Virus record (IMG/VR): IMGVR_UViG_3300020050_006655
Direction: 5' to 3' (one strand)
Length of the DNA stretch: 64,000 nucleotides
Origin: a virus
Taxonomy: Duplodnaviria > Heunggongvirae > Uroviricota > Caudoviricetes
The notes beneath the pieces were generated by a model. The model did no database searches, was not told where the DNA came from, and saw only the letters and a program-made list of their open reading frames with translations. Positions 7,924 to 51,100 of this stretch are shown here, piece after piece. Position 1 is the first letter of the stretch. Every line of letters starts with the position of its first letter. Both the position numbers and the translations under genes were made by a program.

Positions 7924-7924
7924 T

Positions 7925-14247: not shown

Positions 14248-14282
14248 CATTTTTCATTCATTAAAATTATCACTACAACAAC

Positions 14283-16090: not shown

Positions 16091-16259
16091 ACAAACATGA
16101 TTTACATACTTCTGGTTGAGCAAGACCCAGACATCATTTTGATGTGGAATTAGAGCAAGGGTGCAAATCCCTTCCAATCTATAAGAATAACACTTTAGTT
16201 ATTTTGGTTGTATCGGGTATGTAAATCTCTTTTAAACAATTTTAAATTCAAATTATATT

Positions 16260-16589: not shown

Positions 16590-16593
16590 ATCT

Positions 16594-19254: not shown

Positions 19255-19279
19255 CTAATAAATCTCAAAAAACCAAAAC

Positions 19280-19351
19280 GCACCCGTAGCTCAATGGATG
19301 AGCAATTCACTTCTAATGAATAGGTTACAAGTTCGAGTCTTGTCGGGTGTA
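19280..19351 (+). tRNA. tRNA-Arg (anticodon TCT)
   Basis: Acceptor gcacccg/cgggtgt. D arm gctc-aatggat-gagc. Anticodon stem attca/tgaat with loop cttctaa. T arm acaag-ttcgagt-cttgt. Confidence 0.7.
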
Positions 19352-19386
19352 CTAATCAAAATATAAAAAAAAAGAATAACTAAAAC

Positions 19387-19722
19387 ATGAATATTTTAAC
19401 AAAAGAGTTTTGGTTACAAGTTCAAGAAGAATTTGAAGAAAACCCTTCACATTTCTTATGTTGGGCAAGTGATACTTTTGAACGTGCTTTTACTCTTAGT
19501 AATATTAATGCAGAAAATTATTTTGCAGATCTTGCTGAAACATTTTTAAACGAGCATCCACAATGGGCGGCGTGTTTTAAGTCTTTAAACAACTATTGTC
19601 TTTTATTTAAAACGCGTGATCCTGCTAATACACCAAATTCTCTACGTCAACAAGTTAGAAAAGAATTTGTTGACTGGATGGTTCAAAAATTAAATACTAA
19701 AGATGACAAAACAAGAAATTGA
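19387..19722 (+). CDS. member of KEFW...FVDW paralog family (111 aa)
   Basis: KEFWLQVQEEFEENPSHFLCWASDTFERAF...RKEFVDWMVQK. Confidence 0.4.
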   Translation: MNILTKEFWLQVQEEFEENPSHFLCWASDTFERAFTLSNINAENYFADLAETFLNEHPQWAACFKSLNNYCLLFKTRDPANTPNSLRQQVRKEFVDWMVQKLNTKDDKTRN

Positions 19723-19867
19723 ACAAAAAATTGCAGACTACAAAAAAGTCATGGAACAAAATTCTGACAACATTCAGGTGATAGTTCACTGTGGTGATAA
19801 AATACTTGATCTTGAAGCACAGTTGGAAGGAATCCAAAACCCAATAGTTTATTTACCACCACAATAA
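19703..19867 (+). CDS. small protein (54 aa, MTKQEIEQKIADYKK...LEGIQNPIVYLPPQ)
   Basis: Manually translated. Ends 5 nt before tRNA-Met. Loosely similar to the ...LFPA small proteins. Confidence 0.2.
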   Translation: MTKQEIEQKIADYKKVMEQNSDNIQVIVHCGDKILDLEAQLEGIQNPIVYLPPQ

Positions 19868-19872
19868 CCAAA

Positions 19873-19946
19873 TGGGCCATTAGTTCAGATGGTTAGAACA
19901 ACGACCTCATAAGTCGAAGGTCACAGGTTCAAGTCCTGTATGGCCC
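19873..19946 (+). tRNA. tRNA-Met/Ile2-type (anticodon CAT)
   Basis: Acceptor gggccat/atggccc. D arm gttc-agatggtta-gaac. Anticodon loop ctcataa. T arm acagg-ttcaagt-cctgt. There is one mismatch at the top of the anticodon stem. Confidence 0.6.
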
Positions 19947-19997
19947 ACTAATAAAAACTTTTTTAATTTTTCATAACTTTTTTAACTTTTCGTCAAC

Positions 19998-23199: not shown

Positions 23200-23402
23200 A
23201 AGATCTAATTGAAGAACCGGAAGGAGAAATAACACCTCTTGTACCAGTTAAGAAGATAGATACTTTTATAGCACCATTTATAAACAGTCCGTCTGGAACA
23301 AGATGGTATGCTGAAAACTGTATTACAGTAGAAGATGATTCTTTAGTTGTAAAAGCAAAAAGACTGTTTTTTACAGTATTTATTCAAAGATTCTTAAACT
23401 GA
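23193..23402 (+). CDS. small hypothetical protein (69 aa)
   Basis: ORF bridging to the polymerase gene. The stop overlaps the polymerase start. Confidence 0.3.
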   Translation: MVEDLIEEPEGEITPLVPVKKIDTFIAPFINSPSGTRWYAENCITVEDDSLVVKAKRLFFTVFIQRFLN

Positions 23403-32829: not shown

Positions 32830-33199
32830 GAAAATACCTTATCAAGGATCTTTTAATTTTGAAGAAGATAGTTATTTGGCCAACCGGAATACTTATACTC
32901 CAAACAAAGTTGTTAAAAAGACTTTGCCGATTAACGACTTTATTCAAGAGTATATATTTGAGGATTATTCGGTTAAGACAATTGAACAACTGATGATGGA
33001 ATATCAACATCAGTTTCCAATTGAATTGGTTAATTTTGAGGACTTTGTTGAAACAACAGGTGTTACGAATCAAGAACTATGTTCTTATATCCAAAGAAGT
33101 GTAACGGCTATCATACCGTACAAATCAAAAAATCAGAATCTTGAAGAACTGATTCCAAATCTGAATCGGTTAATTAGAGAACTAAATCAGTTAAAATAA
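32804..33199 (+). CDS. hypothetical protein (131 aa)
   Basis: ORF between the JAB and E1-like genes. Confidence 0.4.
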   Translation: MEHMNPTVKKIPYQGSFNFEEDSYLANRNTYTPNKVVKKTLPINDFIQEYIFEDYSVKTIEQLMMEYQHQFPIELVNFEDFVETTGVTNQELCSYIQRSVTAIIPYKSKNQNLEELIPNLNRLIRELNQLK

Positions 33200-33843
33200 T
33201 GAACACAAATAGATATAAAGATGCTGATTTCATGCAGATTCCGCCAATGGATATACTGTTTGTAGGTCTTGGTGGTATTGGTTTTGGTACAGCAAAAAGA
33301 TTACTTGACTGTCAACAGAAACTGACAATCTTTGAACCGGATACTGTATCAGAACACAATTGTATTCCACAAGGATTTGCAAAAGGTCAGATAGGTCAAA
33401 CAAAGTTTAAGTGTCTGGAAGATTATCTAAAAGGTTTTGTTGGTAATGCCCAAATTGAGTATTATACAGGTAAATACCAAAATGATTCTATAGCATATCC
33501 TATTATGGTATCTGCTGTTGATAATTATGAGACAAGAAAAATTATGTTTCATAACTGGAAACAGCAGGAAGATCGTGAATTATTTGTTGATGGTAGATTG
33601 TTGGCAGAATTCTTTCAAGTATTCGCTATTACACCAGAGAATGAAGATTGGTATGAAACAAATTTCTTGAATGGAACTGTTGATGATAATGATGGTGTTA
33701 TGTGTACTTATCAGCAAACAAGTTTTGTAGCATCTATTATTCATGGCGTAATTACACAAAAGATTCTAAACTATGGAACAGGAAAGCCTTTCAGTAGATT
33801 TACAGAATACAACGGAATTATTGATTCCTTTAGATCTGAATAA
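33199..33843 (+). CDS. ThiF/MoeB/E1-like adenylating enzyme (minimal, 214 aa)
   Basis: ILFVGLGGIGFGTAKRL (GxGxxG) followed by KLTIFEPDTVSEHNCIPQ (hLxxxDxDxVxxSNLxRQ-like). Then KxxxLxxxhxGNxQIEY and VSAVDNYETRKIM (DNxxxR), with a Cys further downstream. The order and spacing match the E1 Rossmann fold. Confidence 0.55.
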   Translation: MNTNRYKDADFMQIPPMDILFVGLGGIGFGTAKRLLDCQQKLTIFEPDTVSEHNCIPQGFAKGQIGQTKFKCLEDYLKGFVGNAQIEYYTGKYQNDSIAYPIMVSAVDNYETRKIMFHNWKQQEDRELFVDGRLLAEFFQVFAITPENEDWYETNFLNGTVDDNDGVMCTYQQTSFVASIIHGVITQKILNYGTGKPFSRFTEYNGIIDSFRSE

Positions 33844-35804: not shown

Positions 35805-36315
35805 CATAAAGAGAAGTTTTGTTAATAAAAGCAGGGAGTATCTATGGCCAAGTATCGTGTTGTTAAAGTCTTATCAAGATATTAAATCTGTAGTACCATC
35901 CATCATTACTGTTGGGGCAGGAATACAGAGTTGTCTTGGATTGACATTGTTTTTCCAAGTAACAGATTTTGATAAGATAACTCAAATAATCTCCAGAGCA
36001 AAAGAGCATGGGGAATATTTGATGGATACTATAATCGATACGGACATACATGCAATAGTATTGAAATGTCCTGTCGACATAAATGCCTTCTTGAAAGGAG
36101 AGTACAGTAAAGTATATACGGACAATCAAATTAGGGTTGTCAAAGAAGACAAAAGAAAAATACTACAAAGGGATAAATCGGCAAGAGATGCTTTCATACA
36201 GAAAGTTATTGATGTTGCTGGTGATCTTCGATCAGACACAATAGAGCATTTAACAAAGGGGGAATATGATTTCCCGCCTATTTACCAACAAGAAATAATT
36301 TACTCAACAATATGA
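35788..36315 (+). CDS. hypothetical protein (175 aa)
   Basis: ORF. Confidence 0.4.
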   Translation: MRLEHNIKRSFVNKSREYLWPSIVLLKSYQDIKSVVPSIITVGAGIQSCLGLTLFFQVTDFDKITQIISRAKEHGEYLMDTIIDTDIHAIVLKCPVDINAFLKGEYSKVYTDNQIRVVKEDKRKILQRDKSARDAFIQKVIDVAGDLRSDTIEHLTKGEYDFPPIYQQEIIYSTI

Positions 36316-36785
36316 ATACACTGAAAGTAGAAAAATTAACAGAGACAGCAAAACTACCAGTTAGAGCAGAAGAAGGTTCTGTAGGACTTGATGTATTTGT
36401 TGATTCAATCAGTATTAGAGAAGGAGCCTTGTGCTACAATCTTGGTATAGGAATTGAACCACCAGCAGGATTCTTCGCTATGTTAGTTCCAAGAAGTAGT
36501 CTGTCAAAAGTAGAATGGGTATTTGGTAATTCTATCGGAATTATTGATCCTTCATACAGAGGTGAACTACAAATAAGAATGCGTCCTGTAGGAACCGTAA
36601 CACTTTTGAACGAAGAAGGTATTATCACGTCTACTCATAGTAAGAGGCAAGATCTTCCATACAAGATTGGAGAGAGAGTTGGTCAATTGATTCTTGTACC
36701 TGCTATTTTTGCAGAAGTGAAAGAAGAAACTCTTTCTAAAACAACAAGAGGTGTTGGAGGATTTGGCTCAACAGGCAAGAAATAA
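36312..36785 (+). CDS. dut: dUTP diphosphatase (dUTPase)
   Basis: Canonical motifs GSVGLDVF, GIIDPSYRGEL and RGVGGFGSTG. Confidence 0.75.
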   Translation: MNTLKVEKLTETAKLPVRAEEGSVGLDVFVDSISIREGALCYNLGIGIEPPAGFFAMLVPRSSLSKVEWVFGNSIGIIDPSYRGELQIRMRPVGTVTLLNEEGIITSTHSKRQDLPYKIGERVGQLILVPAIFAEVKEETLSKTTRGVGGFGSTGKK

Positions 36786-37906
36786 TGTTGGTGTGTAAAC
36801 TAATCTTTGTAGATCCTGTTTCTAACCACAACAAGTTCTACAATATGGTAGAAAAGAACGGTGAAATAGAGATTGAGTTTGGTCGTGTTGGTGCTGGTAG
36901 TCAAAAAGCAAAATGTTCTACGAGTCAGTTTTCAAGTAAGAAAAATGAAAAGTTGAGAAAAGGATATATTGATGTTACACACTTTTTGGAAGAAAAATCA
37001 TCTGAATTATCTTTTGATGGAGTTGATCCAAATATCAAGTTGTTGTTTGAGACATTGATGAAATATGCCAATGAATCAGTTGTAAAGAACTACAATCTAA
37101 ATCTTGGTTCTGTAACAGAACTACAAATTAAAGATGCTCAAACAACTCTTGATAATATAGCAAAGGCAACATCAATAGAACACATACAGGTATTATGTAG
37201 AAACCTGTTTATAATTTTTCCAAGAAAAATGCACAGAGTAGTTGATTATATACCAACGTCTGACTGGAGTACGGAAAGGTTAAACAAGTTTCTATCTGAT
37301 GAACAGGATACTCTTGATTCATTGAAAGGTATGGTTACACAAACAACATCTAACTTGTTTGATTGTGGTAACTATAATCTTAGATCAATTGAATATCGTC
37401 CAGAATCAACTATTGAACTTGACTCACTAAGAATTAGAACACCTAAAAAGATATTCAGAGTAGAACACAACAAACAAAGTTTCTTTGATGAACACGTTAA
37501 TCAATCTAGTAATAAAACAACAAGATTGTTAATTCATGGTTCAAGAAGTCAAAACATATTAAGTATCCTAAAGAACGGATTATTAATTCGTCCTACAGGT
37601 GCTTATTATTCTGGTTCTGCTTATGGTGATGGTGTTTATCATGCTGATGTACTTGATAAGAGTCTTGGTTATTGTGGTTATACACCAGACAAGTTCATTA
37701 TGATCCAAGACGTACATCTTGGAAATACATATCAGTACACAGGAAGGAATAGACACGACAAACCAACAAACTTCTTCACCGAAACAGGATTGCAAAAAGA
37801 AGGATGTGATTCTCTTTTTGCTAAAGGTGGGAACGATCTAATAAACAATGAATACATTGTTTATAATTCTAAACAAACAATAATAAAATATCTACTATGG
37901 TATTGA
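36785..37906 (+). CDS. poly(ADP-ribose) polymerase homolog (WGR domain + PARP catalytic domain)
   Basis: N-terminal WGR-like NKFYNMVEKNGEIEIEFGRVGAGSQ. Catalytic signature LLIHGSRSQNILSILKNGL, GDGVYHADVLDKSLGYC and NNEYIVYN (His-Tyr-Glu triad context). Confidence 0.6.
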   Translation: MLVCKLIFVDPVSNHNKFYNMVEKNGEIEIEFGRVGAGSQKAKCSTSQFSSKKNEKLRKGYIDVTHFLEEKSSELSFDGVDPNIKLLFETLMKYANESVVKNYNLNLGSVTELQIKDAQTTLDNIAKATSIEHIQVLCRNLFIIFPRKMHRVVDYIPTSDWSTERLNKFLSDEQDTLDSLKGMVTQTTSNLFDCGNYNLRSIEYRPESTIELDSLRIRTPKKIFRVEHNKQSFFDEHVNQSSNKTTRLLIHGSRSQNILSILKNGLLIRPTGAYYSGSAYGDGVYHADVLDKSLGYCGYTPDKFIMIQDVHLGNTYQYTGRNRHDKPTNFFTETGLQKEGCDSLFAKGGNDLINNEYIVYNSKQTIIKYLLWY

Positions 37907-38538
37907 AACAACCAGACATTAATGTAGCCAAACAAATGCTTGCTGATTGGTGGCTTAACAACAGCACTATAAGTTCATTAGAACTTAAAGAAGAACTTCG
38001 TCGGGATTATCCAGATCATGTATGGACACAACAGTGGACGAGTTGGTTTTTAGGTGAGCAAGGTCTTCACTTTGATGACAATGGAGTGTATAAAGTGTAT
38101 TATGCACAACAAGTATTACCTACAAATACTACAACAGTAACAGTAGTTACAACAGTTGCTGTAAGTTTTCCTGTTACAATTGATAATCTTGATGATTTAG
38201 GTCAAGACTATCATGGTACAAGATTCACCAAAGAGAAGATTAAAAATATGCTTCGAGATGAAGGTATTACAGATTTTACAGACTTTGATGGATGCTTTGA
38301 AAATTCTGGTTGGGTATTTACTGGTAAATACACAGCAGACAACAAGAAGATTTATGTGTGGATTCAGAACTACGAATACTTCTCAAGAAGTAAACAACAA
38401 ATTCTAAGGTTGTCTGAAATTTCAAGACCACATCTTAAAAACGCTTTGTTGAAAAGATACCCTAATGTAACAATTGAATATCTTGTTAACAATCCGTTCA
38501 GTGAAGCAAGTAAACTCCTTAAACACTTTTCAGTATGA
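37897..38538 (+). CDS. hypothetical protein (213 aa)
   Basis: ORF. Confidence 0.4.
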   Translation: MVLKQPDINVAKQMLADWWLNNSTISSLELKEELRRDYPDHVWTQQWTSWFLGEQGLHFDDNGVYKVYYAQQVLPTNTTTVTVVTTVAVSFPVTIDNLDDLGQDYHGTRFTKEKIKNMLRDEGITDFTDFDGCFENSGWVFTGKYTADNKKIYVWIQNYEYFSRSKQQILRLSEISRPHLKNALLKRYPNVTIEYLVNNPFSEASKLLKHFSV

Positions 38539-38810
38539 CCGTTATTTTTCAACAAGATAAAACACTTATAAAAGTAGCGGTTGAATCAATAAAGATTCAT
38601 CCTACTGTTACAAGTGAAATGGAGTTAAGAACAGGGCCATCCTCGTTACTTCAATTTGTTATTCACGATGAATCTGATTCTTATGTTCTTCCTTCTACAG
38701 TATTTGACGGGACACCATTTGCTCTGTTTCAGAAGATTGATATAGAACCTTTAACTTGGTCTGATACAATATCGGTAAAAGAATTTATCAATTTAATTGA
38801 ACTATTGTGA
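38535..38810 (+). CDS. small hypothetical protein (91 aa)
   Basis: ORF. Confidence 0.3.
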   Translation: MTVIFQQDKTLIKVAVESIKIHPTVTSEMELRTGPSSLLQFVIHDESDSYVLPSTVFDGTPFALFQKIDIEPLTWSDTISVKEFINLIELL

Positions 38811-39223
38811 TGACTTGGGATGATACTTTTATGTCTATTGCCAATACTGTTGCTTTACGCAGTAAAGGCAATAGACTGAAAGTTGGTGCTGTACTTGTAA
38901 GAGATAATAGAATACTCTCGTTTGGCTACAACGGACTTCCGTCAGGCTATGAACCTGATATACTTGAAGATGATAACAATGTTACCAAACCAGATGTAAT
39001 TCATGCAGAACTAAACTGTATTCTTAATGCTGCCAAAGAAGGTATATCTCTTAAAGATTCTATTCTCTATGTAACACATAGTCCATGTAGACATTGTGCA
39101 GCATTAATTAAACAGTCAGGAATAACTAAAGTGATCTTTGGTAATTATTACCGAGATACACAGGGATTAGACAAACTAACTGAATATAAAATTCAATACG
39201 TTAAACATGACAACAATTCTTGA
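38807..39223 (+). CDS. dCMP/cytidine deaminase (zinc-dependent)
   Basis: HAELNCILNAA ... HSPCRHCAALI matches the H(A/C)E...PCxxC zinc-binding motif. Confidence 0.65.
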   Translation: MMTWDDTFMSIANTVALRSKGNRLKVGAVLVRDNRILSFGYNGLPSGYEPDILEDDNNVTKPDVIHAELNCILNAAKEGISLKDSILYVTHSPCRHCAALIKQSGITKVIFGNYYRDTQGLDKLTEYKIQYVKHDNNS

Positions 39224-39416
39224 AGCATTGGAAAATGCTAAATATAATGTAGATAATATACCGAAACTAGGATCGTTTTTAATTCCGTTGGTTAAAATGC
39301 AATTGGAAAATAGTATAATCTTACTTGAAAAAGGTTATCCTGTTCATACTGAAATGGACAATCTCCTAGAAAGATATCCAGATTTAAATAATGCGCCTGA
39401 TTATGAAACTACTTAA
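39207..39416 (+). CDS. small hypothetical protein (69 aa)
   Basis: ORF. Confidence 0.3.
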   Translation: MTTILEALENAKYNVDNIPKLGSFLIPLVKMQLENSIILLEKGYPVHTEMDNLLERYPDLNNAPDYETT

Positions 39417-40176
39417 CAAGAAAAGATATATTGAAGATAGAAAATGGTTTAGATTCTATCCTAAATGGGATAGAAACCATACCACCATATCTGAATCTCA
39501 ATATTTTGATCCAAGGCCTACAATACACATCCAACTCACAACAGTCTTATCATTACTTCTAATTCCTTTTCTTGGATGGTATTCATTGATCCTATTGCCA
39601 TTTATCTTTTATGGATGGGGAGATATGTATATATCATTACCCTTAGATTCAGGTATTGAAGATTCGGCAGACTATAAAGAATTTGGATTTTACTTTTATG
39701 GTGAGCCAAAATTCAATATAGAATGTCTTGTTATTCAAATGGGGAGAGATGAAGGTGGTATATACATATATATGCCTTGGTCATTGAAATGGTATAGAAC
39801 TTCAGCATTACGAAAAGATGGTGAATGGGAACATGAGATAGGAAAACATAACAAAGAGTTCTACAATACAGAAAAATGGAAAGATATTCTTTTCTATGAA
39901 ACACATCCTTATACCTATACAACATCTTATAATGAAAAACAAAATGCCTTAGCTACAATTAGAGTAACCGAAAGAGAATGGAGAAGAAGATGTTTGTTTA
40001 ACTTTACATTACTCAATCGTGTTACTAGATCTATTAATGTTGAATTCTCGGAAGATATTGGCGAAAAGAAAGGATCGTGGAAAGGTGGAACGGTTGGTTG
40101 TTCTTATGAATTATTACCTAACGAATCTCCGTTTGAATGTTTAAAACGAATGGAGAGAGAAAGAGTTTTTAAATGA
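39391..40176 (+). CDS. membrane hypothetical protein (261 aa)
   Basis: Two transmembrane helices (LLLIPFLGWYSLILLPFIFYGW). Confidence 0.4.
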   Translation: MRLIMKLLNKKRYIEDRKWFRFYPKWDRNHTTISESQYFDPRPTIHIQLTTVLSLLLIPFLGWYSLILLPFIFYGWGDMYISLPLDSGIEDSADYKEFGFYFYGEPKFNIECLVIQMGRDEGGIYIYMPWSLKWYRTSALRKDGEWEHEIGKHNKEFYNTEKWKDILFYETHPYTYTTSYNEKQNALATIRVTEREWRRRCLFNFTLLNRVTRSINVEFSEDIGEKKGSWKGGTVGCSYELLPNESPFECLKRMERERVFK

Positions 40177-40595: not shown

Positions 40596-41429
40596 ATGCT
40601 ACAACAAAAATTAGAATCAGTAACAATACAAGAAATTCCTTTTAAAGCCTATAAAGGCGTAATAAAACAAACAGATGGTATTTACGCTACATCAAATGGT
40701 AATGGTAAATACAAATTTGACAGAGAAAATATCTGTGAGAATGACAGACCGTTACAATTATGTAATAGTAGCGGATTTCATTTTTCTTTAATGTTAAAAG
40801 ATGTATTAAAACATGTACCTTGTGGTAAAAATACTGAATACTATGAAATAGAAGTGTTTGGTGAACACCTACTTGGTAAAGATAAAGGTATAACCAAAGC
40901 ATTTAGATTTGGACGCAAGATTGAAGATTCAGAAATTGATGATCTTATAACATCTGAAAATATGGGTGAAATATTGAAATCAGTTCAGAAGATTCAAAAT
41001 GATTTTCCGTATTCAATTCTTGGTGGATCTTTGGCTTTATATCTATATGGTTGTAAGTTAGAAAGATTTAAGGATTATAATTCAGATATTGATATTTCAG
41101 TTCCGTTTTACTATGGATTTGAAAACGTATCAGATGTTAAACCTGTTGATGGTTCTTGGGTTCAAAAGACTACTGACAAAAACTATGGTAATGATTTTAA
41201 CTACTCATTTACTATAGATGATACAGACGTTGATGTTAGAATTGATGCTAATCAGAAATATCAAGTAATTGAATATTGTGGATTTAAGTACAAAGTTGCA
41301 TTACTACCTGTTATTATTGCTGCTAAATGTGAATATGCTCTGAAAGGACAAATTAAACATAGTGGTGATCTAATGGAATTAATGGCAAATAAAACTAAAC
41401 CTAAAAATACAGACGACTTTATACTTTAG
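40596..41429 (+). CDS. Pol-β-superfamily nucleotidyltransferase-domain protein
   Basis: ILGGSLALYLYGCKLERFKDYNSDIDISV matches the GS...(D/E)h(D/E)h core nucleotidyltransferase motif. Confidence 0.4.
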   Translation: MLQQKLESVTIQEIPFKAYKGVIKQTDGIYATSNGNGKYKFDRENICENDRPLQLCNSSGFHFSLMLKDVLKHVPCGKNTEYYEIEVFGEHLLGKDKGITKAFRFGRKIEDSEIDDLITSENMGEILKSVQKIQNDFPYSILGGSLALYLYGCKLERFKDYNSDIDISVPFYYGFENVSDVKPVDGSWVQKTTDKNYGNDFNYSFTIDDTDVDVRIDANQKYQVIEYCGFKYKVALLPVIIAAKCEYALKGQIKHSGDLMELMANKTKPKNTDDFIL

Positions 41430-41431: not shown

Positions 41432-41716
41432 ATGACAACAAGCGATAGAATTAAAGATTTAGAAACACAATTAGGAGTTTTGTGTTTGACTAAACCACCA
41501 CAAATAAATCAAGCAGAGCCAGAGTTTTTCAAGTTTCAGGTTCCAGTACCATTGTTTGTAAACGATGTTCAAATTACAGTTCATAAAAACAATTTGAATA
41601 TACCGTCTGTAATTGAAAAAATTATTATAGCGGTGTATGAGGCTGGTTGTAACAACGGTATAGTACAAGGTAATAAACAGATTGTAAACAAGTTTAAAAC
41701 TTTATTTGAGATATGA
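41432..41716 (+). CDS. small hypothetical protein (94 aa)
   Basis: ORF. Confidence 0.35.
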   Translation: MTTSDRIKDLETQLGVLCLTKPPQINQAEPEFFKFQVPVPLFVNDVQITVHKNNLNIPSVIEKIIIAVYEAGCNNGIVQGNKQIVNKFKTLFEI

Positions 41717-42990
41717 TTACTCAAACTAAGATAGGATTGAATAGTAGAAGTGAAGCAAACCCGTTCAACGAGGACGGATTTCTTCCTTTGATTACAGCAC
41801 CAATGTATTCTGTGGTAGACGAATCTAATTATCAGTTATTTCTTGATAATAAGGTTCAGGTTTGTTTACCAAGAGGATTGGGGAAAACAAAAAACAACTT
41901 TGATACAAGTTACCCAATGTTTGTGAGTCTTTCTTTGGACGAGTTTGAAGAACAGTATATAAACGATAAAACACCTTTAAACGGTTTTACAAAAAAAGTT
42001 TGTATTGACACAGCAAATGGTAATATACCTAATCTTCACGATTTTATTAGAGAGGCCAAACAGATTCATGGTAACAATCTTATAATCATGGCTGGTAATG
42101 TAGGTTCAGTAGAAGCATTCGTTGAACTTGCTAAGACTGGTTGTGATTATATTAGGGTTGGAATAGGTGGTGGAGGTGGATGTAATACTACATCTAATAC
42201 TGGAGTTGGACAATACGATCTACATGACTTAATAACGTTTTGTAAATATCCAATTGAAGATGCTATAAAAACATTGAAACAAATAAAAGAAGAAGGGAAA
42301 AGTGAATTCTATCAACGACATGGATTTGGTTCTTCTGTAGGAACATCGCTTATAGAGACTCATTACAATGATACAGTAACCATGTCCAAAGTCAAAATAG
42401 TAGCAGATGGTATTTCATCTTATATTAACTATTGTCAGAAAGAATATAACTTTAATGATAATGGTTATGCTGCTATTAATAAACTATTACACGCTGGTGC
42501 TGATCTGGTAATGGTTGGTAAATTGTTTGCTCAATGTGTAGAATCGGCTGGTGAGAAAGGTATTCAACAAATGCACGGAGTTGAATCGTTTGAACACTGG
42601 CAAGAAAGTAGGAAAAATCTTTTTGGCCTTCCTGATTTATCCACACCATCTAAATATTTTAAGGTAACTAATAAGTATTTAATGGTTAAATACTCTGGTA
42701 TGTCCACACAACAAGAGCAGAAGAAGTATAAACCAGAATTATGTGATGTTAACCTTTTATCTCAACCTAAACAACTATTTGATGGAAGTTGGGAATATGA
42801 GGTGGAGACAGTTGGTGACTCTTATCAAGTAATCAAACCGTCAGAAGGATCTGTTCAATGGATTCCTGTTAGATGGACATTAAACGAATGGTTGAATGGA
42901 TCAGATAAACAAGATGAAAGTCCTTATTTAATGGGATTTGTAAATGCTTTAAAATCAATGATGGCTTATACAAACAGAACTAAATTATAA
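41713..42990 (+). CDS. IMP dehydrogenase / GMP reductase family TIM-barrel enzyme
   Basis: PLITAPMYSVVDE (compare PLxSAxMDTVTE). Catalytic Cys loop IRVGIGGGGGCNTTSNTGVGQ (compare GIGPGSICTTR...GVGxPQ). GADLVMVGKLFA (compare GAxxVMxGSLLAG). Confidence 0.6.
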   Translation: MITQTKIGLNSRSEANPFNEDGFLPLITAPMYSVVDESNYQLFLDNKVQVCLPRGLGKTKNNFDTSYPMFVSLSLDEFEEQYINDKTPLNGFTKKVCIDTANGNIPNLHDFIREAKQIHGNNLIIMAGNVGSVEAFVELAKTGCDYIRVGIGGGGGCNTTSNTGVGQYDLHDLITFCKYPIEDAIKTLKQIKEEGKSEFYQRHGFGSSVGTSLIETHYNDTVTMSKVKIVADGISSYINYCQKEYNFNDNGYAAINKLLHAGADLVMVGKLFAQCVESAGEKGIQQMHGVESFEHWQESRKNLFGLPDLSTPSKYFKVTNKYLMVKYSGMSTQQEQKKYKPELCDVNLLSQPKQLFDGSWEYEVETVGDSYQVIKPSEGSVQWIPVRWTLNEWLNGSDKQDESPYLMGFVNALKSMMAYTNRTKL

Positions 42991-43165: not shown

Positions 43166-43747
43166 ATGATTTCACTAAAAATATTCCAAAAGAAGTATAA
43201 TCATCATATCAATAAAGGTTTATCTTTCTATAAAATATCTAAATGGCCTGAATATTTTAAGATTGATTTTGACGTGTTTCTTCCAACTAAAGGTGTCAAT
43301 TTACAAAGAGACTTTGTATGGACAATAGAACAAAAACGATCCTTTATTCTTTCAATTTTAAAAAATCAAAAGGTTAATCCTATTGTTGTAGTTCAGCATT
43401 ATGACAGAAATCTTGAAGGAACCAGAGGCTCGTCTTGGGATGTCATTGACGGTAAACAAAGGTTGAATACCATTTTTGATTACATTAATGATAAGTTTCC
43501 AATTACAATTGATGAAGGAATATTCTTTTTTAAAGATTTACCAAAAGATTGTCAAAGGCAAATTGAGTTTTTCGATTTAAAAGTTGATGTACATTATAGT
43601 TATCCTGAAAACCCAATTTCAGACGATACCAAGATAAGTCTTTTTGAAGATTGTAACTGGTTAGGAACACCACAAGATATTGAACACTTTAACAGAATTA
43701 AAAATGGGAACAATGAGGACAATAGAAGAAATAAAGAATCTTTTTGA
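43166..43747 (+). CDS. DUF262/ParB-like (GmrS-type) domain protein
   Basis: VIDGKQRLNTIFDYI matches the DGQQR motif of the ParB/Srx/DUF262 fold. Confidence 0.5.
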   Translation: MISLKIFQKKYNHHINKGLSFYKISKWPEYFKIDFDVFLPTKGVNLQRDFVWTIEQKRSFILSILKNQKVNPIVVVQHYDRNLEGTRGSSWDVIDGKQRLNTIFDYINDKFPITIDEGIFFFKDLPKDCQRQIEFFDLKVDVHYSYPENPISDDTKISLFEDCNWLGTPQDIEHFNRIKNGNNEDNRRNKESF

Positions 43748-44108: not shown

Positions 44109-44508
44109 TTTTGATGGAACAGTTGTAACACATGTTTGGCCTGAAATTGGTGAAGATATTGGTGCTGTTCCTGTACTAAAAGAGTTAGTTGCTAAAGGGC
44201 ATAATCTGATTCTCTTTACAATGAGATCGGGTGAATCGCTAAAAGAGGCTGTAAAATGGTTTAAATTACAGGATATTCCTTTGTATGGAGTACAATCAAA
44301 CCCAACACAACATACTTGGACATCTTCTCCAAAGGCTTACGGGCAACTGATTATTGATGATATTTGCTTAGGTATTCCTTTAATTCATAATGCTGTAGCA
44401 TATTGGGATAAAGAAGACTATCAAGAAATAAAACTACCTTATTCGGAAAGACCGTATGTGGATTGGGTAAAAGTAAGACAAATGTTAATTCAAAAACGTA
44501 TTTTATGA
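44092..44508 (+). CDS. HAD-superfamily phosphatase (nucleotidase / polynucleotide 3'-phosphatase-like)
   Basis: N-terminal MDILIDFDGTVV (DxDGT motif I). Also ...LFTMRSG and ...IDD. Confidence 0.55.
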   Translation: MDILIDFDGTVVTHVWPEIGEDIGAVPVLKELVAKGHNLILFTMRSGESLKEAVKWFKLQDIPLYGVQSNPTQHTWTSSPKAYGQLIIDDICLGIPLIHNAVAYWDKEDYQEIKLPYSERPYVDWVKVRQMLIQKRIL

Positions 44509-45704
44509 TTCAAGTACTAACAATTAAAAACAAAATTCCTCTTTTTAAAGGAGAAGTGCCAGCAGAAAAGATCGAACTTCTACAATTTGAAGAAGTTGAT
44601 TTTGAAGTGGTAAGAATGAAAGGGTTGAACGAAGTCAATGAACAAGTTCTATTTGTTTATCCAGATTACTGTTTACCAGACAATGAACTATTTACAGAGT
44701 TTGTAAATCCCTCTGACGGATCAAAATCTAAACTTGGTGGTAATAACCGAGTAAGAGCCATTAAATTTAATCTTCACAGAGGTGACAATGAACCCGTATA
44801 TAGTAATGGTATAATCTTCGGATTCAATGAAATCCAAGACTATCTAAGATTGTACAAACCTAATCTTCAAGAAGCTTTTGAAACGCTTGAAAGTGAAGAT
44901 TTGGGTATTACAAAATGGGTTACAGAAGAAGATCGTCCGGGTAATACTGGTAAATCAAGAAGTGGTAAACCATTATCATCATTTATTTACAAGACAGATG
45001 AGCCAAACATTCTTGCTGCAAGACTACCGTTTCCGGCAACTTATAGAGGAACTGTTAAAGTAGATGGTTCGAGTATTACAGTCTTTGCTACATCTGATGG
45101 ACAGTATGGTGTATGTAGTAGAAACTTAACTAAAGATCTAACTGTTCAAAAAGTTATTGGTCAAAGAAAACTGAAATGGTTTGAGTATATTACACGGTTG
45201 TTTAAACCAATTAATCTGAATATTTATGAAACAGTTCCATCTGATGATAAATTTGTTGTTGCAGCAAGACCATATTTGCAAGTGTTAAATCAATGTACAC
45301 AAAAATACGGTTCATCAATTGCTTTAAGGGGTGAATTGTGTGGTCAAGGTAATAGTGGTTCTGGTAATGCTAAGAATCCACATGCTAAATTACCGTCACA
45401 GATTCTTTGGTATAATCTTGATTCAATCGAAACGAAAAACAAACATCGAACGGCTATACCAATGATGTTTGAAGATTTACAAAATGCTGTTGATTACTTA
45501 AATGAATTTGACTACGGTGTTAACTTCAAAACGGTTGATTCAATCTTTAATAGAGAATTTCAATCAAAAACCGAACTTGTCCAGTTTTGCTATGATTATT
45601 TCAAAACAAATATGATTGAAGGTATTGTAGTTAAGACAACAAACGAGAAAGGGCAAGTTGTTAGTGCTAAAGTAATGAACTTAGAATACGATTCTAAAAA
45701 ATGA
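44463..45704 (+). CDS. ATP-dependent polynucleotide ligase (RNA-ligase-like nucleotidyltransferase)
   Basis: Motif I TVKVDGSSITV (KxDG). Motif IV IEGIVVKT (EGhVhK). Downstream Lys present. Confidence 0.55.
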   Translation: MGKSKTNVNSKTYFMIQVLTIKNKIPLFKGEVPAEKIELLQFEEVDFEVVRMKGLNEVNEQVLFVYPDYCLPDNELFTEFVNPSDGSKSKLGGNNRVRAIKFNLHRGDNEPVYSNGIIFGFNEIQDYLRLYKPNLQEAFETLESEDLGITKWVTEEDRPGNTGKSRSGKPLSSFIYKTDEPNILAARLPFPATYRGTVKVDGSSITVFATSDGQYGVCSRNLTKDLTVQKVIGQRKLKWFEYITRLFKPINLNIYETVPSDDKFVVAARPYLQVLNQCTQKYGSSIALRGELCGQGNSGSGNAKNPHAKLPSQILWYNLDSIETKNKHRTAIPMMFEDLQNAVDYLNEFDYGVNFKTVDSIFNREFQSKTELVQFCYDYFKTNMIEGIVVKTTNEKGQVVSAKVMNLEYDSKK

Positions 45705-46328: not shown

Positions 46329-46515
46329 TCTAAACAGGACAATTAAAGAAATAGGGCAAGGTGTAGTAGATGAATCTAAAGTTCAATACTACACCAAATG
46401 CCCTGATTGTAAAAAAGAATACATAACCGACGAAGGTCATTTATGTAGTAAATATCAAAAAACAAAAAGAGAAATGCGTTATGAGAAAAGGGACGAACAC
46501 ACCGGAGAACATTGA
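46294..46515 (+). CDS. small zinc-ribbon protein (73 aa)
   Basis: CPDC...HLC. Confidence 0.3.
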   Translation: MPMKSWESFRSDLNRTIKEIGQGVVDESKVQYYTKCPDCKKEYITDEGHLCSKYQKTKREMRYEKRDEHTGEH

Positions 46516-46897
46516 AGAATTGTTACCAAATCAAGTATTTGTTTTTGGTAGCAATCTTGCGGGTTTTCATGGTTCAGGTGCAGCATTCACAGCGAAAACA
46601 TTATTTGGTGCTGAAATGTATGTAGGATTGGGTATAACAGGACAGTGTTATGCCTTACCAACAAAGAATAAATATGTAATGACTCTACCACTATCTGATA
46701 TTGATATTCAGATAAGACTGTTTTACCAACATGCTTTGATGAATCCAGATAAAGAATATCTTGTAACTAAAGTTGGTTGTGGTCTTGCTGGCTATACTGT
46801 TGAACAGATCGGAGAGTTGTTTCAACAAGTAGAACGTGAGTATGCTGAACTGTTATGGTCAACACACAATATTATTTTACCAATAGAATTTGAATAA
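46481..46897 (+). CDS. Gly-rich Rossmann-like hypothetical protein (138 aa)
   Basis: VFVFGSNLAGFHGSGAAFTAKTLFG...VGCGLAGY. Family not recognised. Might be a nucleotide/ADP-ribose-binding fold. Confidence 0.4.
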   Translation: MRKGTNTPENIEELLPNQVFVFGSNLAGFHGSGAAFTAKTLFGAEMYVGLGITGQCYALPTKNKYVMTLPLSDIDIQIRLFYQHALMNPDKEYLVTKVGCGLAGYTVEQIGELFQQVEREYAELLWSTHNIILPIEFE

Positions 46898-48140: not shown

Positions 48141-51100
48141 TTAGTTCTGTTGACCAAGATATTGGACATCATCAGACATCACGTTAAAGAACTGGAACAA
48201 TCCACCAAAACCGGGAATCCAAGCATGTGTGTATGAACCAATATTCTTTCTGTCGTCTGAATCCTTCTCACCAGTAATTAATGTTTTTTCTCCAAGAGTT
48301 ATGTTACCTTGACTTACGTCATAAAGTTCATCAAACATGTTATTAATCGTTTTAACAGCATCTTGAAGAAGACCTATCATTGGAATAGGGTTTTTTGTAA
48401 GATTGATAAATTCTGTTGGATTAACAAAGAAACTAATTTCTTGTTTCACTTTAAGAATTACAGACACAAGTTTTTTGGTTAAGAAATACTTCTTATAATC
48501 CTTTTCCCCATCATCGTCCCAATCTCCCATAGCAAGAGTTGCAAGTAATAAGAAACCAAGTATAATACGAAGTTCAATAATAGACGCTTTAAGTTGTTTC
48601 TCTTGAACACTTCTAAATTCCTTGTAAGATACTTTACCGTCATATTGTGGATTTCTTGCCAGCCAGTTCTCATACATCAATCTTGCCGTACCATCGTCCT
48701 TCATCTTAAATCCTTTAAAGTACCCACCAATGGTATGGAAACTTGCTACTTGCATTGCAAGTTGACCTAGTTTTGGAAGAACAATATCTCTAACAAAAAG
48801 GCCAAGTTGAAGATTTTCATTTTGACTATTTATTTTTTGCGTCCCAAATTCCTGCATAATTGCGGTGAATCTACCCATATAAACAGTGTCAACACGTTTG
48901 TCATACTTAACCTTACCAAATCTTTCGGTCATTACACCGGGCATCCACGATTTAAAGTTACCTACGAGTGTTCCTACCAATTGTCCTTGCCATACAGCCT
49001 TATCTTCTTCTGGTATGGTTCCTTTAATACCTGACTGTACAACTTGTACAGCACGTCTAAAAGCAATCCATATTTGTTTCTGTTGATCTTCTGGTATGTT
49101 AAGTGTAGCCTTACCATCTTCATACTTAAATAGGTCTTTGATAAACCTTCCTTTATACTTTTCCTTATCTTCTGGAAACTGGACTTTTTTAAGTAGACCG
49201 TCCGGTGTTACATAATAATTCTGACTAAGCGCGTATGTAACTACTTCTTCAATGTATTCATCACCTATACTATAAGGCTTCATAAGCAGTCTTGAATTAA
49301 CATACTTATTGATAAAACCACGTTGGGACGAATCACCCAATTGCGTTTCTCCAACGGTAGATTCTTCCAATCTTACTGCCCCATATCTATGACCCATTGG
49401 ATCGAAGTATGCAGATAGTGCTAGAAACTCCTTACGTGACTTGTAAGAGGCTTTTATTGATTCGGAGTATTGTTGCTCGTCATAATAAATGCCTGTCTTA
49501 CCAGTGATTACAGACTGAATCTTGGCTGCTATAAAACCGCCTGTTGCAGATAGTATATTAAAGCCAAGTTTCTTGATCGTAAAGTAGTTCTTCATTTGAA
49601 GAAGCATCTTTTCGGTCTTACCACTTTTATCTCCAATAACAGGTTCAACAGATAAACCATAAACATACATCTGAACAAAACGATCAAATGTTTTTACAAT
49701 ATCTGTTTCACTTAACTTTTGGGTAAAGTTATTACCAAGCAAATTTGTCTTTAACCCTCTATCAGATTGTTGTAACTCAAGTCCTTTTTCAACAAGTAAT
49801 TCTCTAAGACCAAGTACCTCACCTTCAATCTTGGTCATTTCATCATAGTTATAAGCCATCTTAGCAAACAACAATAAACTACGTCCAAGTTGATATGATT
49901 TCTCACCATTGATTATATTACCATCCTTATCCCTAAACGGGTTAAGAAAGAACTTGGGAATAGAATCTCTTTTAAGATATGAATCATCAGACGATCTATC
50001 ATCTTCTCGAACTGAAAAGTCTTTGATAAAATCATCAACACTTGAAGATACACCTTTCATACCCCATTCATCAATACGTTCAGATGCTGATTTACGAATG
50101 TTAGGAATAAAGTTGTTTGGTAATTGTTTATATTCAACACCAAGCATCTTTCTAAATTCACGATTCTTTGATTCAAGCAAATTGTAATAATTCAGAAACT
50201 CTGGAACCTGTCTGATCTTTTCAAATTCAGCACTATAGACAATAACATCTTCTTTAAAAGTCAATTTACCATTTGCTCTGGCATTCTTCCAAGCAAGTGG
50301 GAACATTGCTTTCCCATTGGTTTTTAATTCAAGACTGTTCCTACCGTCCCATTTTTCCAATTCACGTTGTACCCTTGCAGGATCACTTGGATATAGACTA
50401 TCTAATTTCTTCTCATAAACGTTACGTCTTTCTTTCCAGTCGTAATATTCAACAACATTGAATTGATTTGGATAATCCTCTCCCGTCCCATCAGAAACTT
50501 CTTTTAGCCATTTTTTATCAGTCTTTTCAATAAGATTATCTTCCCTATTGATTATAAGTTTGATAAAATCTTGCCAAGTCATTCCTTTTTGTTTCAGGTA
50601 TCTGATTACATCATTTTCTGTTTTAACAACCTGTTCTGTTAATTCGTCAATCTTCTTATTCTTTTCAAAATGTGCCTTATCTAATTTAGCACGTAATGTT
50701 TGAAAGATAGGATTATTAAACTGGCTAAGTTGATAAAACCATGCCGCAAAATAACCTTCTGGACTGAAAGGAATAATATTACCTGCTTCATCAACAATCT
50801 TTTCACCTGTTTCTTCTGCAACAACACGGGCTAATCTATGATTGAACCATTCCTGTTTTACCCTTGCAAGTGTATCGTTGATGAGTGTATTGATGATTAT
50901 AGTTTGTTGTTCAATAGCAGATGTATCAATTCCCTGATCGTTTAAGAACTTACGATATTCAAATGTGGCATCGTTAAGTGTTTTAAACAAATTCAATTCG
51001 TTATAAATGTTTCCTAAATCATCAATAGACAAATCATCCATATTCTCTAACTGTTTGTTAATATGGATTACAAACTCTTGAATAGCATTTACAGACTTCT

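What the first reader, a model, noticed from the sequence alone, without database searches (positions are those of the whole stretch)
36785..37906. WGR-PARP homolog in a phage genome
The protein combines a WGR-like N-terminal domain (…EIEFGRVGAGSQ) with a complete PARP catalytic signature: H-G-S nicotinamide pocket (LLIHGSR), the Tyr-rich GVYHAD segment, and the catalytic-Glu context NNEYIVYN. PARP-family enzymes are rare in prokaryotic viruses. It sits between dUTPase and dCMP deaminase, which would fit DNA-break sensing or ADP-ribosylation of host or phage factors during replication. A Gly-rich Rossmann-like protein at 46481..46897 and a nucleotidyltransferase at 40596..41429 could be functional partners, but that link is speculative.
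Basis: partly seen in the sequence, partly recalled or inferred. Interest (0 to 1): 0.75.

Follow-up and report, generated by a model that had tools for sequence, protein, structure and literature searches.

The report
Phage PARP enzyme with winged-helix partner
This phage gene encodes a real and apparently active relative of the human DNA-break sensor PARP; such phage PARPs are already catalogued, but it travels with a small, uncharacterised DNA-binding-type partner gene, and in related phages with strand-sealing and NAD-making genes.

Summary
ORF 36785..37906 (+) encodes a 373-aa protein with a WGR domain, a compact PARP-type helical domain and a PARP catalytic domain. His251, Tyr285 and Glu356 and the rest of the NAD+ pocket are intact. 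They are invariant in 65 of 65 viral homologues, and the gene is under purifying selection (dN/dS 0.15).

It is not a new kind of thing. Phage PARPs were reported in 2005 and 2014. They form PHROG 23333, are annotated in Cellulophaga phage phi4:1 (35% identity), and occur on at least 276 IMG/VR contigs. The window is an unsequenced, distantly crAss-like phage.

I found a different one. The ORF that overlaps the PARP stop codon (37897..38538) is a tandem winged-helix protein with no Pfam or PHROG match. Its family lies beside PARP, on either side, in 16 of 43 viral lineages, and in 3 of 3 independently sampled cases.

Phage PARP neighbourhoods repeatedly hold ATP-dependent DNA ligase, RNA ligases, RlaP, PNKP, NAD synthase, NAPRTase and NADAR. 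No PARG or macrodomain is detectable in the window.

The best reading is a nucleic-acid-break-activated ADP-ribosyltransferase linked to strand repair. No biochemistry exists for any phage PARP.

The parts
36785..37906 (+). PARP gene: 373 aa, WGR - helical domain - ART, including the stop codon
   Evidence: ORF. Pfam PF00644 E=1e-23 and PF05406 E=6.6e-5. phrog_23333 E=8.8e-65. AF2 model pLDDT 85.8. Foldseek aligns the whole length to PARP1 and PARP2 WGR-CAT chains at E~1e-20. dN/dS 0.15 against a 96%-identical relative.
36785..36988 (+). WGR domain (aa 1-68): four strands plus a helix, with motifs N16-K17-x-Y19 and F32-G33-R34
   Evidence: Pfam WGR covers residues 4-66, just above the cutoff. 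The family profile aligns to the PARP2 'NNNKYY...RWGRVG' region. N16, K17, Y19, G33 and R34 are invariant in 65/65 viral homologues; position 32 is Y, W or F.
37028..37348 (+). Compact helical (PARP regulatory, HD-like) domain: helices at aa 82-102, 112-127, 131-144 and 163-188
   Evidence: There is no PF02877 hit. The family profile nevertheless runs co-linearly through the HD of PARP2 and PARP1, and Foldseek alignments of ~455 columns span it. P146, R147 and E173 are invariant.
37373..37903 (+). ART (PARP catalytic) domain, aa 197-373. H251 is at nt 37535-37537, Y285 at 37637-37639, E356 at 37850-37852
   Evidence: PF00644 covers residues 222-371. The alignment to PARP1 is ungapped through the donor loop. 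H251, G252, R254, Y285, K292, Y296 and E356 are invariant in 65/65 sequences.
37897..38538 (+). PARP-associated tandem winged-helix protein (213 aa). Its start overlaps the PARP 3' end by 10 nt
   Evidence: No Pfam, PHROG or PADLOC hit. The family lies next to PARP in 16/43 lineages, on either side. All 3 independently sampled homologues have PARP 0.3-2 kb away. AF2 model pLDDT 84.3 shows two winged-helix units and a disordered Thr/Val linker at aa 72-87. Only winged-helix matches appear in the PDB. The one significant viral match is the PARP-adjacent protein of phage phi4:1, E=8.8e-4.
36312..36785 (+). dUTPase. Its TAA stop overlaps the PARP ATG (TAATG), so the two are probably co-translated (context gene)
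   Evidence: PF00692 E=3e-13.
38535..38810 (+). 91-aa ORF of unknown function. It is syntenic downstream of the partner only in close relatives (context gene)
   Evidence: No Pfam or PHROG hit. It is present in L001 and L003 and in 2 groups only.
38807..39223 (+). dCMP deaminase (context gene)
   Evidence: PF00383 E=1.5e-27.
44463..45704 (+). Rnl2-type RNA-ligase-family gene 6.5 kb downstream. It is a possible functional link, because ligases recur near phage PARPs
   Evidence: PF09414 E=2.2e-9. The recurrence of ligases near PARP in other lineages is shown.

Best explanation
The gene encodes a minimal 'clade-1' PARP with the layout WGR - helical domain - ART, the same three-domain core as PARP2, PARP3 and the bacterial PARPs. 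It is expressed from the phage's replication and nucleotide-metabolism operon.

Shown here: the domain architecture, the intact NAD+ pocket and H-Y-E triad, purifying selection, and a conserved gene partnership with a tandem winged-helix protein.

Inferred by analogy with PARP1-3 and Herpetosiphon PARP: the WGR domain binds a 5'-phosphorylated nick or end in nucleic acid. This loosens the autoinhibitory helical domain and admits NAD+. The ART domain then transfers ADP-ribose, as single units or chains. The acceptor could be the enzyme itself, the adjacent winged-helix protein (whose disordered linker, Thr/Val-rich here and Ser/Thr/Asp/Glu-rich across its homologues, resembles an acceptor segment), or the terminal phosphate of the break.

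More speculatively, the mark flags or shields breaks in replicating phage DNA, or in damaged RNA, and coordinates their sealing by the ligases that so often sit beside phage PARP genes.

My confidence is about 0.9 that this is a catalytically competent WGR-HD-ART PARP. It is about 0.55 that it is activated by nucleic-acid breaks and works with the repair machinery. It is lower for any particular acceptor.
For: Architecture and active site:
- Pfam, PHROG and PDB sequence hits.
- The profile of 42 homologues aligns co-linearly with PARP2 (E=4e-33) and with the PARP1 WGR-CAT chain.
- AF2 model pLDDT 85.8, and Foldseek E~1e-20 to DNA-break-bound PARP1 (4dqy_C, 4opx_C) and PARP2 (7aeo, 6x0l) over ~455 columns.
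- The H-Y-E triad, the G-R of the WGR motif and HD residues are invariant in 65/65 viral sequences; dN/dS is 0.15.

Repair link:
- The commonest neighbours over 43 dereplicated lineages are ATP-dependent DNA ligase (19), Rnl2-type ligase (11), Rnl1 (9) and RlaP (5).
- Outside the T4-like synteny block, 15 of 30 lineages still have a ligase or RlaP within 8 kb, in varied arrangements.
- The ligase overlaps or abuts PARP in L004 and L055.
- Phage phi4:1 has the order CCA-adding enzyme, PARP, partner, DNA ligase.

NAD+ use:
- NAD synthase, NAPRTase and NADAR are among the recurrent neighbours.

Partner:
-.

Literature:
- HaPARP needs DNA for activity, and CdPARP makes PAR in assays run with activated DNA (PMC8120803, PMC5966428).
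- PARP1-3 ADP-ribosylate phosphorylated DNA ends. The PARP3 product may serve ligases, and modified ends are protected from phosphatase, possibly also from nucleases (PMC8385414).
Against: - No phage PARP has been assayed; I found no such paper.
- The WGR hit is only just above the Pfam cutoff, and the domain lacks the C-terminal extension seen in PARP2.
- PF02877 is not detected by Pfam.
- H-Y-E does not prove polymer synthesis: PDB depositors name the H-Y-E enzyme PARP4 a mono-ADP-ribosyltransferase.
- The residue aligned to the Tyr before the catalytic Glu of PARP1 is Asn, and the loop before that strand is ~17 residues shorter.
- No PARG, macrodomain, ARH or Nudix is detectable in the 64-kb window, so a reversible cycle is unproven here.
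- Ligase proximity is partly inherited synteny: 13 of 43 groups form one T4-like block. It is also partly expected for any early or replication-module gene. My crude binomial test was only borderline.
- In this window no DNA ligase was seen. The nearest sealing enzyme is an Rnl2-family gene 6.5 kb away.
Confidence: 0.6

Rival explanations
1. Host-takeover enzyme. Like T4 Alt, ModA and ModB, the PARP ADP-ribosylates host proteins such as RNA polymerase or the translation apparatus to reprogramme the cell. Nucleic-acid breaks play no role.
For: Two comparative surveys speculate that phage PARPs act like other phage ARTs but add chains (PMC7824862; PMC9503650). The gene sits among early and middle-type genes.
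Against: T4-type ARTs belong to the R-S-E clade and lack the WGR and helical domains. Here both regulatory domains are strictly conserved, which argues for a nucleic-acid-gated enzyme. PARP genes are not found in the head-packaging contexts described for host-takeover ARTs. The ligase, RlaP and PNKP neighbours are left unexplained.
Confidence: 0.15
2. RNA-break sensor or capper. The enzyme recognises 5'-phosphorylated RNA ends, for example tRNAs cut by host anticodon nucleases. It ADP-ribosylates them or marks them for the phage RNA-repair pathway.
For: Rnl1, Rnl2-type ligases, RlaP, PNKP and CCA-adding or poly(A)-polymerase-family genes recur next to phage PARPs. This window has an Rnl2-family gene and seven tRNA genes. 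Several PARPs and TRPT1 ADP-ribosylate 5'-P RNA in vitro (PMC8385414).
Against: The closest structural relatives (PARP1 and PARP2) are bound to DNA breaks in the matching structures. ATP-dependent DNA ligase is the single commonest neighbour. The RNA-modifying PARPs named in the literature lack WGR domains (my own knowledge, not tested here).
Confidence: 0.12
3. NAD+ drain. The PARP burns host NAD+ to disable the host's NAD+-dependent DNA ligase and NAD+-using defences. The phage meanwhile relies on its own ATP-dependent ligase.
For: PARP frequently co-occurs with an ATP-dependent, not NAD+-dependent, DNA ligase. Bacterial replicative ligases use NAD+ (PMC9503650).
Against: Several lineages place NAD synthase or NAPRTase beside PARP. 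That points to supplying NAD+, not exhausting it. The conserved autoinhibitory helical domain argues against unregulated consumption.
Confidence: 0.08
4. A phage-carried toxin or superinfection-exclusion (defence) module, or an inactive decoy.
For: ARTs occur in toxin-antitoxin and defence systems carried by phages (PMC9503650). The tight two-gene arrangement superficially resembles a toxin-antitoxin pair.
Against: Neither PARP nor the partner matches any PADLOC model. The gene lies inside the replication operon with overlapping stop and start codons. The catalytic residues are invariant and dN/dS is 0.15, which excludes a decayed or decoy gene. The partner is a winged-helix protein with no hydrolase fold that could act as an antitoxin by reversal.
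Confidence: 0.05

Closest known systems
Cellulophaga phage phi4:1 gp031 and phi17:2 'poly (ADP-ribose) polymerase' (PHROG 23333)
   Same: Full-length homologue, 35% identity over residues 6-372, with the same WGR-HD-ART layout. It is followed by a member of the same winged-helix partner family, gp030. It also sits in a nucleic-acid-metabolism block.
   Different: That phage is a 146-kb myovirus (Lightbulbvirus). There PARP is flanked by a CCA-adding enzyme and an ATP-dependent DNA ligase. Here the phage has a distantly crAss-like replication module. The flanks are dUTPase and dCMP deaminase, and no DNA ligase was found in the window. Neither protein has been studied experimentally.
Human PARP2 and PARP1 (WGR - HD - ART core), DNA-break-activated poly(ADP-ribose) polymerases
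   Same: Co-linear sequence and fold match across all three domains. H-Y-E and the other NAD+-pocket residues are identical. The donor loop is ungapped relative to PARP1.
   Different: About 20% identity. There are no zinc fingers, no BRCT or automodification region and no basic N-terminus. The WGR lacks the C-terminal extension, the helical domain is smaller and undetected by PF02877, and the loop before the catalytic-Glu strand is ~17 residues shorter. Asn replaces the Tyr two residues before the Glu. No HPF1 or PARG is present.
Bacterial PARPs (Herpetosiphon aurantiacus HaPARP, Clostridioides difficile CD160 CdPARP)
   Same: The same minimal architecture of WGR, a poorly defined helical domain and PARP. 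A Y, W or F occupies the first position of the 'WGR' motif, as reported for bacterial PARPs (PMC5966428). Both bacterial enzymes auto-PARylate in vitro; HaPARP is reported to require DNA, and CdPARP was assayed with activated DNA (PMC8120803).
   Different: Those bacteria also encode a PARG that reverses the modification. No eraser is detectable in this window. I did not compare the sequences directly. A bacterial homologue sampled here (P0083) stands alone, with no ligase or partner nearby.
[quoted passage not shown]
   Same: Phage-encoded, NAD+-dependent ADP-ribosyltransferases.
   Different: They belong to a different ART clade (R-S-E versus H-Y-E). They have no WGR or helical domain, act as mono-ADP-ribosyl or RNAylating enzymes on host proteins, and are often packaged in the head (PMC9503650). 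The window protein hits only PF00644 among ART families.

Membership tests
PARP / ARTD, H-Y-E clade (Pfam PF00644) | Sequence match to the PARP catalytic domain above the curated threshold | tested here: met
   84.3 bits against a cutoff of 26.7, E=1e-23. PDB PARP1 fragments match at E~5e-14.
PARP / ARTD, H-Y-E clade (Pfam PF00644) | Catalytic triad His-Tyr-Glu, plus the Gly/Ser/Lys/Tyr residues that hold nicotinamide | tested here: met
   H251, Y285 and E356 align to the PARP1 motifs. H251, G252, R254, Y285, K292, Y296 and E356 are invariant in 65/65 viral homologues; S293 is present in 62/65.
DNA-dependent PARPs (PARP1/2/3-type, WGR-HD-ART) | WGR domain directly N-terminal to the catalytic region | tested here: met
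   PF05406 scores 23.4 bits against a cutoff of 22. The profile aligns to the PARP2 and PARP1 WGR. Foldseek covers it. G33 and R34 are invariant.
DNA-dependent PARPs (PARP1/2/3-type, WGR-HD-ART) | Helical regulatory domain: Pfam PF02877 match | tested here: not met
   No PF02877 hit at E<=1.
DNA-dependent PARPs (PARP1/2/3-type, WGR-HD-ART) | Helical regulatory domain present by profile alignment and by fold | tested here: met
   Four long helices at aa 82-188. The profile alignment is contiguous through the PARP2 and PARP1 HD. Whole-chain Foldseek alignments reach ~455 columns.
DNA-dependent PARPs (PARP1/2/3-type, WGR-HD-ART) | Activity switched on by DNA breaks | not testable with these tools
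   Needs an enzyme assay with and without nicked or 5'-P DNA.
Poly(ADP-ribose) polymerases in the strict sense | Synthesis of ADP-ribose polymers rather than single units | not testable with these tools
   H-Y-E is necessary but not sufficient; PARP4 is named a mono-ADP-ribosyltransferase in the PDB. The donor loop has the PARP1 length, but Asn replaces the Tyr before the Glu and the preceding loop is shorter.
Complete reversible PAR system (writer plus eraser) | A PARG, macrodomain, ARH or other ADP-ribosyl hydrolase encoded alongside | tested here: not met
   No such Pfam family appears in any ORF of 60 aa or more in the window. The window is only part of the genome. NADAR genes occur near PARP in a few other lineages.
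PHROG 23333 (phage PARP family, labelled 'polymerase') | Full-length profile match | tested here: met
   E=8.8e-65, residues 6-372 on profile positions 6-381 of 383.
Known or candidate anti-phage defence systems (PADLOC-DB 2.0) | Match of PARP or its partner to any defence-system model | tested here: not met
   No family matches either protein at E<=1e-3.

The most novel reading that the evidence does not exclude
PARP and the adjacent tandem winged-helix protein form a conserved two-component phage module. PARP is a break-sensing writer. The partner is a DNA-bound adaptor or acceptor that stands in for the missing automodification or DNA-binding regions of PARP1. The module works with phage ATP-dependent DNA ligases, RNA ligases and phage NAD+ synthesis. 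It would be a viral counterpart, and possibly an evolutionary source, of eukaryotic PARP-dependent break signalling. One possible mechanism is ADP-ribose capping of 5'-phosphate ends, which would shield them from host nucleases or hand them to ligase.
Probability: 0.3. Interest if true: 0.7.

Novelty: new member of a known kind. Interest (0 to 1): 0.4.

Why it matters
As a sighting of PARP in a phage, this is a routine new member of a catalogued family, and the annotation should simply say so. The value lies in what the comparative work adds.

No phage PARP has a known function. Three features point to regulated, NAD+-consuming chemistry at nucleic-acid breaks rather than generic host modification:
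- the strictly conserved break-sensor domains;
- the recurring ligase, RNA-repair and NAD+-synthesis neighbours;
- a previously unannotated winged-helix partner.

Cellulophaga phage phi4:1 is cultured and carries PARP, partner and ligase in a row, so the idea can be tested directly. A positive result would give a minimal, tractable model for PARP activation and substrate choice. It would also bear on where eukaryotic PARP signalling came from.

Tried and rejected
ORF 40596..41429 hits only DUF7666 and phrog_33731. ORF 46481..46897 hits only phrog_2072. Neither is a recognisable nucleotidyltransferase or Rossmann protein, and the former is shared only with close relatives. Rejected.
- **PF02877.** Not detected by Pfam. 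The helical domain had to be shown by profile and by fold instead.
- **Identifying the genome.** Megablast of 15 kb found no phage match. Only distant DNA polymerase similarity to crAss-like phages was found.
- **Erasers and NAD+ salvage in the window.** None found.
- **Other PARP-adjacent unknowns as hidden partner homologues.** I tested clusters c2, c16, c30, c3 and c5 of the T4-like clade with hhalign and with jackhmmer enriched by 168 database homologues. No link appeared.
- **Domain fusions of the partner family.** The 46 longest representatives were scanned. Only weak winged-helix echoes appeared.
- **Fold searches of the partner.** The PDB gave only generic winged-helix hits, none at E<=1e-3. 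AFDB50 was unavailable. BFVD gave the phi4:1 neighbour only.
- **Defence-system membership.** No PADLOC hit.
- **Literature.** Searches for functional work on phage PARPs, or for PARP in crAss-like phages, found nothing relevant.
- **Chance expectation for ligase proximity.** My binomial estimate used rough background rates and 9/31 rather than the final tally of 8/30. I treat it as suggestive only.
Full report
**1. The observation**

Every quoted motif is present.
- Pfam gives the PARP catalytic domain PF00644 at E=1e-23 (84.3 bits, cutoff 26.7, residues 222-371).
- The WGR domain PF05406 is just above its cutoff (23.4 against 22 bits, residues 4-66).
- PHROG 23333 matches end to end at E=8.8e-65.
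- PARP1 catalytic fragments in the PDB match at about 5e-14. LLIHGSR, GVYHAD and NNEYIVYN align to LLWHGSR, GIYFAD and YNEYIVYD.

The flanks are as stated: dUTPase at 36312..36785 and dCMP deaminase at 38807..39223. The dUTPase stop overlaps the PARP start (TAATG). The next ORF starts 10 nt before the PARP stop. These genes are therefore probably expressed together.

**2. The protein**

An alignment of 42 homologues at 33-96% identity shows the whole NAD+ pocket invariant: H251, G252, R254, N257, Y285, K292, Y296 and E356, with S293 in at least 90%. The WGR residues N16, K17, Y19, G33 and R34 are invariant too. Across 65 distinct viral sequences, H, Y and E are each 65/65. The first 'WGR' position is Y (51), W (8) or F (6). 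The same pattern was reported for bacterial PARPs (PMC5966428).

Against a 96%-identical relative, dN/dS is 0.15.

The region between WGR and ART gave no PF02877 hit. It is a helical domain all the same.
- The AlphaFold model (pLDDT 85.8, pTM 0.76) has four long helices at residues 82-188.
- The family profile aligns in one piece through the WGR, helical and ART regions of PARP2 (E=4e-33) and of the PARP1 WGR-CAT chain.
- Foldseek aligns the entire model, about 455 columns at E~1e-20, to PARP1 and PARP2 chains solved on DNA breaks: 4dqy_C, 4opx_C, 7aeo_A and 6x0l_P.

The architecture is therefore the minimal WGR-HD-ART core. It differs from PARP1 and PARP2 in several ways.
- There are no zinc-finger, BRCT or automodification regions.
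- The WGR is shorter.
- The loop before the Glu-bearing strand is about 17 residues shorter.
- Asn (64/65) stands where PARP1 has the Tyr two residues before the Glu.

The donor loop aligns to PARP1 without gaps. Whether the product is mono- or poly-ADP-ribose cannot be read from sequence. H-Y-E enzymes such as PARP4 are named mono-transferases by PDB depositors.

**3. The genome**

A 15-kb stretch has no megablast match among 50,697 phage records. The family-A DNA polymerase (23402..25309) is closest to crAss-like phages, at about 29% identity.

The + strand carries a replication and nucleotide-metabolism block:
- helicase, DnaB-like protein, AAA_24 ATPase, ThiF-like protein;
- UDG-like protein, PD-(D/E)XK nuclease, dUTPase, then PARP;
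- dCMP deaminase, an Acb3-like protein, YopX, an IMPDH-like protein;
- GmrSD_N-domain protein, an Rnl2-family ligase and an ATPase.

Near-identical or related contigs share the local order. They include L001 (96% PARP identity), L007 and L008 (100%), and L003 (56%, on a 108-kb contig).

**4. Is a phage PARP new?**

No. PARP genes were reported in Aeromonas phage Aeh1 and Cellulophaga phage phi4:1 (PMC4245714) and in jumbo phages (PMC7824862). A survey of 21,191 viral proteomes names PARP ('PART') among the most frequent viral ART families (PMC9503650).

In the phage collection, 15 records encode a relative. The best are phi4:1 and phi17:2 at 35% identity, annotated 'poly (ADP-ribose) polymerase'. 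IMG/VR holds at least 276 contigs with a relative. The large protein database gave 259 hits at E<=1e-5.

What is missing is function. I found no paper reporting an assay or a phenotype for any phage PARP.

**5. Neighbourhoods**

I called ORFs in 87 loci: 80 from IMG/VR, 6 from assemblies, and the window. I clustered them by BLASTP and dereplicated the loci into 43 groups at 80% PARP identity.

The commonest neighbours within 8 kb are:

| Neighbour | Groups (of 43) |
|---|---|
| ATP-dependent DNA ligase | 19 |
| Rnl2-type RNA ligase | 11 |
| Rnl1-type RNA ligase | 9 |
| RlaP | 5 |

Thirteen groups share one T4-like gene order (Rnl1 ... ligase ... Rnl2 - c3 - PARP - c2 - c5), so they are not independent. 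Among the other 30 groups, 8 have a DNA ligase and 15 have some ligase or RlaP, in differing arrangements.
- In L004 and L005 the ligase overlaps the PARP start.
- In L055 the ligase abuts PARP.
- L006 has RNA ligase, RlaP and PNKP upstream.
- Cultured phage phi4:1 reads CCA-adding enzyme (gp032), PARP (gp031), hypothetical protein (gp030), DNA ligase (gp029).

A Pfam scan of the remaining recurrent neighbour clusters added these families:
- NAPRTase (E=2e-77), NAD synthase (8.5e-46) and NADAR (4.6e-42);
- PNKP and PolyA_pol;
- thymidine kinase and Thy1.

NAD synthase lies near PARP in L043, L081 and L082. It follows the partner directly in L089, L090 and L092. NADAR-like genes lie 5-6 kb upstream in two lineages.

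These links are suggestive, not proof. Early-gene modules gather such functions anyway, and my chance estimate was rough.

**6. A conserved partner**

The ORF overlapping the PARP stop (37897..38538, 213 aa) has no Pfam, PHROG or PADLOC match.
- Its cluster is a remote homologue of another PARP-adjacent cluster (hhalign probability 95%, E=3e-8).
- Profile iteration finds the family in 16 of 43 groups, always on the PARP strand. In 14 of them it lies within about 500 bp.
- It is upstream in L010, L023, L069 and L073, and downstream in the window, L003, L004, L014, L017 (phi4:1), L022, L050, L056, L043 and L006.

As an independent test I took three homologues found by sequence alone (P0135, P0130 and P0142). 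All three have a WGR-PARP gene 0.3-2 kb upstream.

The shared part is an N-terminal domain of about 70 aa (motif TTxLD[IV]KxxLR ... Q..VS ... NGxYRxY). The C-terminal halves vary.

The model (pLDDT 84.3) shows two winged-helix units joined by a disordered Thr/Val-rich linker. Homologues have Ser/Thr- or Asp/Glu-rich linkers. PDB matches are all winged-helix domains, none individually significant. The only significant viral match is the phi4:1 protein next to its PARP, at E=8.8e-4.

An exhaustive profile search finds 1,109 representative clusters at E<=1e-3. No informative fusions appeared. The T4-like clade lacks a detectable member.

**7. Mechanism**

Shown: a selected, catalytically intact WGR-HD-ART enzyme in a replication operon, with a winged-helix partner, and in many relatives with strand-sealing and NAD+-supply genes beside it.

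Inferred from PARP1-3 and HaPARP (PMC8120803, PMC5966428, PMC8385414): the WGR domain binds a 5'-phosphorylated break, the helical domain releases autoinhibition, and ADP-ribose is transferred. The acceptor could be the enzyme, the partner or the terminal phosphate. That would mark or protect the break and aid ligation.

Rivals are host-protein takeover, RNA-end capping within tRNA repair, NAD+ depletion that favours the phage's ATP-dependent ligase, and a toxin or defence role.
- The conserved regulatory domains argue against constitutive takeover or an NAD+ drain.
- The NAD+-synthesis neighbours argue against depletion.
- The lack of PADLOC hits and the operon position argue against a defence module.
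- The invariant catalytic residues and low dN/dS rule out an inactive gene.

No PARG, macrodomain, ARH or Nudix gene is visible in the 64-kb window. Reversibility is therefore open here.

**8. Verdict**

The finding is real and correctly identified, but it is a new member of a known kind. Interest is moderate. It comes from the unannotated partner and the repair and NAD+ context, which make the unknown function of phage PARPs testable in a cultured system (phi4:1).

Noticed in passing
window 39391..40176 (+): A 261-aa protein matches Pfam PF25187 'CBASS inhibitor Acb3' at E=2.2e-39, 1.5 kb downstream of PARP. It is syntenic in L003. This is a candidate anti-defence gene inside the same operon-like block.
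   Followed up: partly
window 48141..63855 (-): Three very large ORFs lie head to tail on the minus strand. The 3116-aa ORF (52139..61489) has a RecD/PIF1-type SF1 helicase at aa ~2245-2740. The 1333-aa ORF (48141..52142) has a PD-(D/E)XK or exonuclease-like N-terminus. The 791-aa ORF (61480..63855) has no hit. Together they would make a giant helicase-nuclease set of unknown role.
   Followed up: partly
window 4263..4574 (+): A 103-aa ORF carries a ribosomal protein L7/L12 C-terminal-like domain (Pfam E=1e-8), which is unusual for a phage.
   Followed up: partly
window 3637..19948 (+): Seven tRNA genes (Leu-TAG, Gln, Lys, Ser, Thr, Arg-TCT, Met) are scattered through the early region.
   Followed up: no
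window 33199..33843 (+) and 41713..42990 (+): The replication block contains a ThiF-family (E1-like) protein (E=2.3e-11) and an IMPDH/GMP-reductase-like protein (E=5.5e-18). Both are conserved in the related contigs L001 and L003.
   Followed up: no
window 43166..43747 (+): This protein has a GmrSD_N (DUF262-type) domain and also matches the PADLOC models NsnA and PD-T4-2_A. A related gene recurs near PARP in L004.
   Followed up: no
RefSeq NC_021788 and NC_021798; PHROG 23333: RefSeq and the PHROG label shorten the product name of the phage PARP to just 'polymerase'. That would mislead annotation transfer, since it reads as a nucleic-acid polymerase.
   Followed up: yes
L089, L090 (3356-4204) and L092 (3529-5232): In another phage lineage the order is PARP, small ORF, winged-helix partner, NAD synthase. 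In L092 the synthase is the glutamine-dependent form with a CN_hydrolase domain. DUF7831 follows, and in L092 an RNA ligase.
   Followed up: partly
L013, L026, L040, L048, L079, L083 and other T4-like loci: In the T4-like clade a different unannotated 237-aa protein (cluster c2, no Pfam hit) sits immediately downstream of PARP. A 67-aa ORF (c3) sits upstream. Neither is detectably related to the winged-helix partner, so they may be analogous partners.
   Followed up: partly
window 37897..38535 versus L001 9964..10614: Between the window and L001, the partner gene is much more diverged at synonymous sites (dS 0.54) than the adjacent PARP gene (dS 0.15). This hints at a recombination boundary at the PARP-partner junction.
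   Followed up: no
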